From: Escherichia coli
Lineage (GTDB): Bacteria > Pseudomonadota > Gammaproteobacteria > Enterobacterales > Enterobacteriaceae
NCBI RefSeq assembly: GCF_013315695.1
Contig: NZ_CP054353.1
Length of the DNA: 64,000 nucleotides
Strand: one strand, 5' to 3'
Shown: piece by piece, positions 18,118-25,782 of the stretch
Layout: every line of letters starts with the position of its first letter
Position numbering within the stretch: position 1 is the stretch's first letter
The notes under the pieces: model-generated
The model's database searches: none
The model's input: only the letters and a program-made list of their open reading frames with translations
Told to the model about the DNA's origin: nothing
Made by a program: the position numbers and the translations under genes

Positions 18118-18186
<69 letters not shown>

Positions 18187-23460: not shown

Positions 23461-23499
23461 ATATCAATGCCGGATTGCCATCCGGCATTGACTACAAAC

Positions 23500-24345: not shown

Positions 24346-25782
24346 TTACTCCTGCGAAACGTCATCCCACGCGTCTGGAGAAAGCTGGCGACCGATCTCC
24401 GGATAACGCAACGGATCAAACACCGGGCGCACGCCGAGTTTACGCTGGCGTAGATAATCACTGGCAATGGTATGAACCACAGGCGAGAGCAGTAATATGG
24501 CGGTCAAATTGGTAATAGCCATGCAGGCCATTATGATATCTGCCAGTTGCCACATCAGCGGAAGACTTAGCAAGGTACCGCCGATGACCGTTGCGAAGGT
24601 GCAGATCCGCAGACACCAGATCGCTTTAGGGTTGTTCAGGCGTAAGAAGAAGAGATTGTTTTCGGCATAAATGTAGTTGGCAACGATGGAGCTGAAGGCA
24701 AACAGAATAACCACGAGGGTAACAAACTCCGCACCCCAGGAACCCATTAACACCCGCATCGCCTTCTGGATAAGCTGAATACCTTCCAGCGGCATGTAGG
24801 TTGTGCCGTTACCCGCCAGTAATATCAGCATGGCGCTTGCCGTACAGATGACCAGGGTGTCGATAAAAATGCCAATCATCTGGACAATTCCTTGCGCTGC
24901 CGGATGCGGAGGCCAGGACGCCGCTGCCGCTGCCGCTGCCGCGTTTGGCGTCGACCCCATTCCTGCCTCATTGGAAAACATACTGCGCTGAAAACCGTTA
25001 GTAATCGCCTGGCTTAAGGTATATCCCGCCGCGCCGCCTGCCGCTTCCTGCCAGCCAAAAGCACTCTCAAAAATAGACCAAATGACGTGGGGAAGTTGCC
25101 CGATATTCATTACGCAAATTACCAGGCTGGTCAGTACCCAGATTATCGCCATCAACGGGACAAACCCCTGCATGAGCCGGGCGACGCCATGAAGACCGCG
25201 AGTGATTGCCAGCAGAGCAAAGACAGCGAGAATAATGCCTGTCACCAGCGGAGGAAAATCAAAAGAAAAACTCAGGGCGCGGGCAACGGCGTTCGCCTGA
25301 ACTCCGCTGAAAATTATGCCGTAAGCGATGAGCAAAAAGAGGGCGAACAGAACGCCCATCCAGCGCATCCCCAGCCCGCGCGCCATATACCATGCCGGTC
25401 CGCCACGAAACTGCCCATTAACGTCACGTTCTTTATAAAGTTGTGCAAGGGAACATTCGGTAAACGAGGTCGCCATGCCGATAAACGCGGCAACCCACAT
25501 CCAGAAGACGGCACCTGGTCCACCGGCGGTAATAGCCAGCGCAACGCCAGCCAGGTTGCCGCTACCCACGCGCGCCGCAAGACTGGTACACAATGACTGA
25601 AATGAGGTTAAACCGCCTGGCTGTGGATGAATGCTATTTTTAAGACTTTTGCCAAACTGGCGGATGTAGCGAAACTGCACAAATCCGGTGCGAAAAGTGA
25701 ACCAACAACCTGCGCCGAAGAGCAGGTAAATCATTACCGATCCCCAAAGGACGCTGTTAATAAAGGAGAAAAAATCTGGCAT
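24346..25782 (-). CDS. yaaJ: alanine/glycine:cation symporter-family transporter YaaJ
   Basis: 478-aa multi-TM ORF; contains an 8-residue Ala tract (NAAAAAAAASWPPHP) encoded by a GCN repeat at about 24918-24941. Confidence 0.9.
   Translation of the reverse strand: MPDFFSFINSVLWGSVMIYLLFGAGCWFTFRTGFVQFRYIRQFGKSLKNSIHPQPGGLTSFQSLCTSLAARVGSGNLAGVALAITAGGPGAVFWMWVAAFIGMATSFTECSLAQLYKERDVNGQFRGGPAWYMARGLGMRWMGVLFALFLLIAYGIIFSGVQANAVARALSFSFDFPPLVTGIILAVFALLAITRGLHGVARLMQGFVPLMAIIWVLTSLVICVMNIGQLPHVIWSIFESAFGWQEAAGGAAGYTLSQAITNGFQRSMFSNEAGMGSTPNAAAAAAAASWPPHPAAQGIVQMIGIFIDTLVICTASAMLILLAGNGTTYMPLEGIQLIQKAMRVLMGSWGAEFVTLVVILFAFSSIVANYIYAENNLFFLRLNNPKAIWCLRICTFATVIGGTLLSLPLMWQLADIIMACMAITNLTAILLLSPVVHTIASDYLRQRKLGVRPVFDPLRYPEIGRQLSPDAWDDVSQE

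What the first reader, a model, noticed from the sequence alone, without database searches (positions are those of the whole stretch)
24918..24941. GCN trinucleotide repeat encoding an 8-alanine tract in the YaaJ transporter
gccgctgccgctgccgctgccgcg on the plus strand (the minus-strand coding sequence is its reverse complement) encodes AAAAAAAA in a predicted loop of YaaJ. The protein is 478 aa versus the 476 aa I recall for K-12, consistent with a two-codon expansion in this tract. It is a small slippage-prone repeat that probably varies between strains; the functional consequence is likely minor.
Basis: partly seen in the sequence, partly recalled or inferred. Interest (0 to 1): 0.15.

Follow-up and report, generated by a model that had tools for sequence, protein, structure and literature searches.

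The report
Two-alanine slippage expansion in YaaJ transporter
A six-base repeat inside the E. coli alanine/glycine transporter gene yaaJ has gained one extra copy in this strain, adding two alanines; this is a rare, recurrent and probably harmless copying slip, so the finding is real but ordinary.

Summary
yaaJ (24346..25782, minus strand) encodes 478 aa with eight alanines (A281-A288), coded (GCGGCA)3-GCGGCG at 24919..24942. K-12 and the window's closest relative MS 21-1 have (GCGGCA)2-GCGGCG, six Ala and 476 aa. The difference is one hexanucleotide unit.

Of 5,424 complete E. coli genomes carrying yaaJ, 7 have eight Ala and 4 have four Ala. No 5-, 7-, 9- or 10-Ala allele turned up, and every other listed row had the six-Ala length. 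The rare alleles sit on unrelated backgrounds. The window differs by 2 SNPs in 3.5 kb from six-Ala MS 21-1 but by about 50 from every other eight-Ala allele. The expansion is therefore recurrent replication slippage, not shared ancestry.

"Varies between strains" is true only at about 0.2%. "Loop" is half right: the tract begins in the short half-helix TM7b, just after the unwound substrate/Na+ site (FSNEAGMGS), and runs into the TM7b-TM8 linker. The spacing there is 13 or 15 residues in 96 diverse homologues; only the window has 17. AlphaFold2 local confidence falls from 95 to 79. The effect is untested and probably small. The exact protein is already catalogued (WP_174183202.1). Low interest.

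The parts
24346..25782 (-). yaaJ, an alanine/glycine:cation symporter family gene, 478 aa allele
   Evidence: ORF. Pfam PF01235 Na_Ala_symp at 486 bits against a cut-off of 24. PDB 6CSE AgcS at E = 8e-81. The AF2 model matches 6CSE with TM-score 0.83/0.92 and rmsd 2.5. RefSeq names the orthologue yaaJ in 5,424 genomes.
24919..24942 (-). Ala281-Ala288 tract: (GCGGCA)3 GCGGCG on the coding strand, one hexanucleotide unit more than the usual (GCGGCA)2 GCGGCG
   Evidence: It is the only indel against MS 21-1 and K-12 in 3.5 kb.
24943..24972 (-). Codons for S270-N280, the conserved SNEAGMGSTPN stretch (the unwound TM7 substrate/Na+ site) directly upstream of the tract in the protein
   Evidence: In alignment A1, N271, E272, G274 and G276 are invariant. 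AgcS S274 and E276 bind alanine and Na+, and the unwound region is E276-S281.
25027..25048 (-). Degenerate second copy of the tract (77% identical 22-mer, 108 nt away) encoding part of QEAAGGAAG; it is the partner arm for rare 108-nt in-frame deletions
   Evidence: the repeat finder family D1. The deletion junction in L013/P0012 lies between 8-nt AGCGGCAG repeats.

Best explanation
The 8-alanine tract is a de novo in-frame expansion by one unit of a short hexanucleotide repeat (GCGGCA) in the coding sequence of yaaJ. It was produced by slipped-strand mispairing during replication.

The ancestral and near-universal E. coli state is 2 units plus GCGGCG (6 Ala, 476 aa). Gain of a unit gives 8 Ala (478 aa) and loss gives 4 Ala (474 aa). 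Both happen repeatedly on independent lineages and stay rare.

The two extra alanines fall at the end of half-helix TM7b and the start of the TM7b-TM8 linker, just after the unwound substrate/Na+-binding segment. They lengthen that linker from 15 to 17 residues, counted from invariant G276 to the proline of the HP motif.

Shown: the repeat structure, the allele spectrum, the independent origins and the structural position. Inferred: the slippage mechanism, and a small or nearly neutral effect on transport. The small effect is plausible because YaaJ is one of two proposed alanine importers alongside CycA, and it made only a minor contribution in the cysteine-import assays of PMC7373191.
For: - Perfect period-6 array of 3.8 copies.
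- The window and 6 of the 7 other 8-Ala alleles read (GCGGCA)3GCGGCG; the seventh, JCKP02, has GCT in the penultimate codon. K-12 and MS 21-1 read (GCGGCA)2GCGGCG, and two of the four 4-Ala alleles read GCGGCA-GCGGCG (the other two carry GCT).
- Length classes among 5,424 complete genomes: 8 Ala in 7, 4 Ala in 4; none with 5, 7, 9 or 10. All differences are +/-6 nt.
- Independent origins. The window is 2 SNPs in 3,527 columns from 6-Ala MS 21-1 and 49-53 SNPs from every other 8-Ala allele. The 8-Ala alleles differ from each other by 19-39 SNPs, except two close pairs. The four 4-Ala alleles differ by 22-62 SNPs, and one is 3 SNPs from K-12.
- Not an assembly error. The exact 478-aa protein is WP_174183202.1 / QKM89750.1, found on 17 contigs from NCBI, ENA and Logan samples.
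- Structural position. The AgcS unwound region is E276-S281, followed by 7b, and the tract aligns to AgcS A285-A289. AF2 places the helix at 278-283 in the 6-Ala model and at 282-286 in the 8-Ala model.
- Dispensability. YaaJ is one of two proposed alanine importers and contributed little to cysteine import (PMC7373191). yaaJ is listed among functions absent in Shigella (PMC2617782).
Against: - No direct measurement of slippage rate or of transport was possible here.
- Spacing between invariant G276 and the HP proline is 13 (81 sequences) or 15 (15 sequences) in 96 other family members. It is 11 residues between GSxP and HP in 113/113 Escherichia and Citrobacter orthologues. The window's 17 is unique.
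- AF2 mean pLDDT for residues 281-290 drops from 95 (6-Ala) to 79 (8-Ala).
- Both points fit purifying selection on length, so 'nearly neutral' may be too generous. AF2 is not, however, a validated predictor of indel effects.
- The allele census rests on ranked BLAST rows rather than a full listing. Variants on very divergent flanks, or a 2-Ala allele, could have been missed.
Confidence: 0.88

Rival explanations
1. The 8-Ala allele was imported by homologous recombination or gene conversion from another 8-Ala lineage, rather than arising by slippage in this lineage.
For: E. coli recombines frequently. The other 8-Ala alleles carry the same or nearly the same tract sequence. ARS-C101 and W24 share one YaaJ protein accession while differing at 7 flanking sites.
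Against: The window is 2 SNPs from 6-Ala MS 21-1 over 3.5 kb and about 50 from every 8-Ala donor candidate. The nearest distinguishing SNP lies about 20 nt upstream of the tract: GAGGCAGG in the window and MS 21-1, GAGGCGGG in all seven other 8-Ala alleles. Any conversion tract would therefore have to be a few tens of bases long.
Confidence: 0.04
2. The extra six bases are a sequencing or assembly artefact in a GC-rich repeat.
For: Short GC-rich repeats can be miscalled. One record in the collection (H35) spans 1430 nt where the others span 1431, which may be such an error.
Against: The exact 478-aa protein occurs on 17 contigs from independent NCBI, ENA and Logan samples. Seven other complete genomes have the same +6 nt. 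The change is a clean in-frame unit.
Confidence: 0.02
3. Tract length is a selected tuning knob: in-frame 4/6/8-Ala variants change gating or kinetics of the transporter and are favoured in particular niches.
For: The tract adjoins the substrate/Na+ site in a gating helix. The family uses two discrete spacings, 13 and 15, and the 4-Ala allele restores the majority spacing of 13. Expansion and contraction both recur. The window allele was sampled 17 times.
Against: Every length variant is at a frequency of 0.13% or less, with no large clade and no host or source pattern; sources include human, cattle, calf, yak, veal and a marsupial. With only 2-3 repeat units, mutability is far below that of true contingency loci.
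Confidence: 0.05

Closest known systems
Sodium/alanine symporter AgcS of Methanococcus maripaludis (PDB 6CSE/6CSF; AGCS family, Pfam PF01235)
   Same: 39% identity over 434 residues at E = 8e-81. LeuT fold, with the AF2 model at TM-score 0.83/0.92. Identical FSNEAG motif in the unwound TM7. Read from the alignment, the Na+/substrate residues are conserved: AgcS N80, I165, Q170, S274, E276 and D308 correspond to YaaJ N76, I157, Q162, S270, E272 and D308. An alanine run also follows the motif in AgcS (IAAAAAK).
   Different: AgcS has 13 residues between the invariant Gly and the HP proline. K-12 YaaJ has 15 and this allele has 17. AgcS W370, the cytoplasmic plug and part of the hydrophobic pocket, aligns to Asn369 in YaaJ. 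Direct transport data for YaaJ were not found in the papers read; it is called a 'proposed' alanine importer.
In-frame simple-sequence-repeat length polymorphism by slipped-strand mispairing in bacterial coding regions (established general knowledge)
   Same: A perfect short tandem repeat, changes in whole units only, recurrence on independent lineages, and a preserved reading frame.
   Different: There are only 2-3 units, so it is far less mutable than classical contingency loci. There is no on/off switching because the unit is a multiple of three.
Microhomology-mediated deletion between dispersed short direct repeats
   Same: Rare yaaJ alleles lack 108 nt between two AGCGGCAG copies, one of which lies in the tract.
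   Different: That event removes the substrate-binding segment and very likely inactivates the protein. The window allele is a clean +6 nt with the ORF intact.

Membership tests
AGCS (alanine/glycine:cation symporter) family, Pfam PF01235 Na_Ala_symp | Profile match above the curated threshold over the full domain | tested here: met
   486.4 bits against a cut-off of 24, covering profile positions 7-392 of 392.
AGCS (alanine/glycine:cation symporter) family, Pfam PF01235 Na_Ala_symp | LeuT-type fold matching the solved AgcS structure | tested here: met
   AF2 model with pLDDT 92.9 and pTM 0.92. Foldseek top hit is 6cse_M at E = 2.9e-23, TM-score 0.83/0.92, rmsd 2.5.
AGCS (alanine/glycine:cation symporter) family, Pfam PF01235 Na_Ala_symp | Conserved substrate/Na+ residues of AgcS (N80, Q170, S274, E276, D308) | tested here: met
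   All are aligned to identical residues. N271, E272, G274 and G276 are invariant, and S270 and D308 are at least 90% conserved, in 100 sequences. The roles of these residues are taken from 10.1101/293811.
AGCS (alanine/glycine:cation symporter) family, Pfam PF01235 Na_Ala_symp | Demonstrated Na+- or H+-coupled alanine/glycine transport by this protein | not testable with these tools
   YaaJ is called a 'proposed' or 'putative' alanine importer in PMC7373191. No assay of the 8-Ala allele exists to my knowledge.
Slippage-type simple sequence repeat polymorphism | Perfect tandem repeat whose alleles differ by whole units | tested here: met
   Unit GCGGCA in 1, 2 or 3 copies, giving 4, 6 or 8 Ala. 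No +/-3-nt alleles were found.
Slippage-type simple sequence repeat polymorphism | Recurrent, independent origin of length variants | tested here: met
   The SNP distance matrix puts variants on unrelated backgrounds, and the window is 2 SNPs from a 6-Ala strain.
Slippage-type simple sequence repeat polymorphism | Elevated indel rate at the site, measured directly | not testable with these tools
   Needs mutation-accumulation or fluctuation data.
Contingency (phase-variable) locus | Long repeat tract with high-frequency reversible switching that changes expression or reading frame | tested here: not met
   There are only 2-3 units. The unit is a multiple of 3, so the frame is kept. About 99.8% of genomes share one length.

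The most novel reading that the evidence does not exclude
The TM7b-TM8 linker length of YaaJ is a functional dial. Recurrent in-frame +/-2-Ala slippage next to the substrate site changes gating kinetics or substrate preference. On this reading the 4-, 6- and 8-Ala alleles (spacings 13, 15 and 17) are niche-selected variants rather than neutral noise.
Probability: 0.04. Interest if true: 0.4.

Novelty: already known. Interest (0 to 1): 0.1.

Why it matters
It matters little. It is a tidy natural example of unit-wise, in-frame slippage at a very short repeat (2-3 hexanucleotide units) recurring across E. coli.

It also gives a natural 4/6/8-residue series in the linker after the unwound gating helix of a LeuT-fold transporter. 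That series could serve a structure-function study of AGCS transporters. For genome annotation it explains why YaaJ is 478 aa here rather than 476 aa.

Tried and rejected
- A 59-nt 6-Ala query, meant to classify all genomes by identity band, failed. Synonymous SNPs in and around the tract are common: GCT in the fifth Ala codon, GCA in the first, TCT/ACA upstream. About 900 genomes lost the 28-nt seed. I switched to synthetic 4-, 5-, 7- and 10-Ala queries with longer flanks, with N at the three common SNP sites in the 5- and 7-Ala queries.
- Hairpin-driven instability was rejected. DNA folds of either strand around the tract are no more stable than shuffles (z = +1.2, +0.8 and -0.2).
- An assembly artefact was rejected.
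- Import by recombination is disfavoured.
- Papers mentioning yaaJ gave only context on function and dispensability, and nothing on the tract.

Full report
**1. What is in the sequence**

The ORF at 24346..25782 on the minus strand encodes 478 aa. On the coding strand the region reads AAC GCG GCA GCG GCA GCG GCA GCG GCG TCC. That is N280, then A281-A288, then S289, with the Ala codons at 24919-24942. Tandem Repeats Finder calls a perfect period-6 array of 3.8 copies with score 46. This is the second-best of 23 short arrays in the whole window. The best is at 18129-18160 and looks like the Thr/Ile-rich thr leader (that identification is from my own knowledge).

**2. Identity of the gene**

- The protein matches Pfam PF01235 (Na_Ala_symp) at 486 bits.
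- It matches the solved sodium/alanine symporter AgcS (6CSE) at E = 8e-81.
- An AlphaFold2 model built on 100 sequences (pLDDT 92.9) superposes on 6CSE with TM-score 0.83/0.92.
- RefSeq annotates the orthologue as yaaJ in 5,424 of 5,426 complete E. coli genomes.
- Neighbours are yaaX, yaaA and talB, as in K-12.

**3. Comparison with other strains**

K-12 yaaJ is 1431 nt / 476 aa with (GCGGCA)2 GCGGCG, six Ala. In a 3.5-kb alignment of the window with nine other strains, the only gapped columns are the six bases of one GCGGCA unit.

I took a census of the complete-genome collection using the real sequence and synthetic alleles.

| Ala-tract length | Genomes | Calls |
|---|---|---|
| 8 | 7 (ECONIH4, UTAK-15, Z1323HEC0422, Z1323HEC0399, ARS-C101, W24, JCKP02) | 5, confirmed from a different flank background in 20 |
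| 4 (474 aa) | 4 (30EVA1, F719, A41, MS10711) | 19, 51 |
| 5, 7, 9 or 10 | none found | 20, 39, 40 |
| 6 | every other row inspected | 3, 5, 19, 20, 39, 40 |

Length variation therefore exists, but at about 0.2%, and only in steps of one hexanucleotide unit. The six-Ala tract also carries synonymous variants, and one Ala-to-Thr variant, without any length change.

**4. Independent origins**

- Over 3,527 aligned columns the window differs by 2 SNPs from six-Ala MS 21-1 and by 49-53 SNPs from each of the other eight-Ala alleles.
- Those eight-Ala alleles differ from each other by 19-39 SNPs, except two close pairs.
- The four 4-Ala alleles differ from each other by 22-62 SNPs, and one is 3 SNPs from K-12.
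- A SNP about 20 nt upstream of the tract separates the window and MS 21-1 from all other eight-Ala alleles. This leaves almost no room for gene conversion.
- The window's exact protein is already catalogued as WP_174183202.1 / QKM89750.1. It occurs on 17 contigs from NCBI, ENA and Logan samples. It is therefore a real allele of a circulating clone and not an assembly error.

The best explanation is recurrent slipped-strand mispairing at a very short hexanucleotide repeat. Neither strand forms an unusually stable hairpin.

**5. Where the tract sits in the protein**

- In AgcS, TM7 is broken by a non-helical stretch from Glu276 to Ser281, which links segments 7a and 7b. Ser274 and Glu276 bind the substrate and Na+ (10.1101/293811).
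- YaaJ has the same FSNEAGMGS motif. Its alanine run aligns to AgcS A285-A289, the start of 7b.
- The six-Ala AF2 model has a short helix at 278-283, followed by an extended linker to TM8, which starts at 292.
- The eight-Ala model places the helix at 282-286, with TM8 starting at 294. Mean pLDDT for residues 281-290 falls from 95 to 79.

The tract straddles the end of a gating half-helix and the following linker. By analogy with LeuT TM6b, that linker is cytoplasmic (inference from the LeuT comparison in the AgcS paper).

**6. Constraint on length**

- In the 113 Escherichia and Citrobacter proteins (of the top 120 hits) in which the motif could be found, the segment between GSxP and HP is always 11 residues, although its sequence varies (for example NAAASAASWPP).
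- Across 97 aligned sequences with both anchors conserved, mostly representatives of 50%-identity clusters, the spacing from invariant G276 to the HP proline is 13 in 81 and 15 in 15.
- The window's 17 is unique in that set.
- The 4-Ala alleles return to the family-majority spacing of 13.

This argues that length is under purifying selection and that the eight-Ala form is unusual. Even so, it has persisted with an intact ORF in several lineages.

YaaJ is one of two proposed alanine importers alongside CycA. It made only minor contributions in the cysteine-import study (PMC7373191). yaaJ is also listed among functions absent in Shigella (PMC2617782). A mild defect would therefore be weakly selected against. 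The functional effect remains untested.

**7. Related observation**

The tract is also one arm of rarer, destructive events. Several E. coli proteins of 423-448 aa lack a block that ends or starts at the tract. In one of them (P0012, locus L013) the junction shows a 108-nt deletion between two AGCGGCAG copies. These correspond to the window's 24919-24940 and its 77%-identical partner at 25027-25048. That deletion removes the substrate-binding segment.

**8. Verdict**

It needs three corrections: the variation is rare, the unit is a hexanucleotide, and the location is not simply a loop.
- The mechanism is ordinary replication slippage, the allele is already in public databases, and nothing suggests a new kind of system.
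- Interest is low.

Noticed in passing
window 24919-24940 and 25027-25048; locus L013 501-1823: Rare E. coli yaaJ alleles (P0009-P0014 and P0017, 423-448 aa) carry in-frame deletions with one end at the Ala tract. In P0012 the junction is a 108-nt deletion between 8-nt AGCGGCAG direct repeats, and it removes the FSNEAGMGS substrate site.
   Followed up: partly
window 23461-23499 (yaaX-yaaA spacer): The spacer is 39 nt in the window and in MS 21-1 but 152 nt in K-12. In ARS-C101, W24, JCKP02, F719 and A41 an IS621 (IS110-family) element sits between yaaA and yaaX. This looks like a small variable spot, possibly a REP-type target; that was not checked.
   Followed up: no
window 24346-25782 (protein residue N369): AgcS Trp370 forms the cytoplasmic plug and part of the small hydrophobic pocket that limits substrates to Ala/Gly. 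It aligns to Asn369 in YaaJ, and Thr366 aligns to Ser365 (roles from 10.1101/293811). YaaJ's substrate range may therefore differ from that of AgcS.
   Followed up: no
proteins P0001, P0002, P0005-P0007: Five 758-aa E. coli proteins combine PF01235 (YaaJ) and PF03883 (YaaA). This is the length expected if the yaaJ stop codon is lost and translation reads through the 69-nt spacer into yaaA.
   Followed up: no
hits H35 (NZ_OZ121069.1) and H40 (NZ_CP148357.1); P0015/P0016, P0037/P0054/P0057: Other yaaJ lesions occur in complete genomes and assemblies: a 1430-nt span (probable frameshift or sequencing error), a 39-aa in-frame deletion of residues 107-145 (437-aa product), and a 56-aa deletion (420-aa products). 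These fit a gene that is dispensable in some lineages.
   Followed up: no
window 18129-18166: This is the highest-scoring short tandem repeat in the window (period 12, CATTACCACCAC, score 50). It is probably the Thr/Ile codon run of the thr operon leader, given thrC/yaaX/yaaA downstream. That identification is from my own knowledge and was not tested.
   Followed up: no
window 24895-24902, 24922-24929, 24934-24941: The 8-mer CGCTGCCG from the tract recurs 27 nt away in the codons for PAAQ (repeat finder family D2). It is another possible microhomology partner for small in-frame deletions.
   Followed up: no
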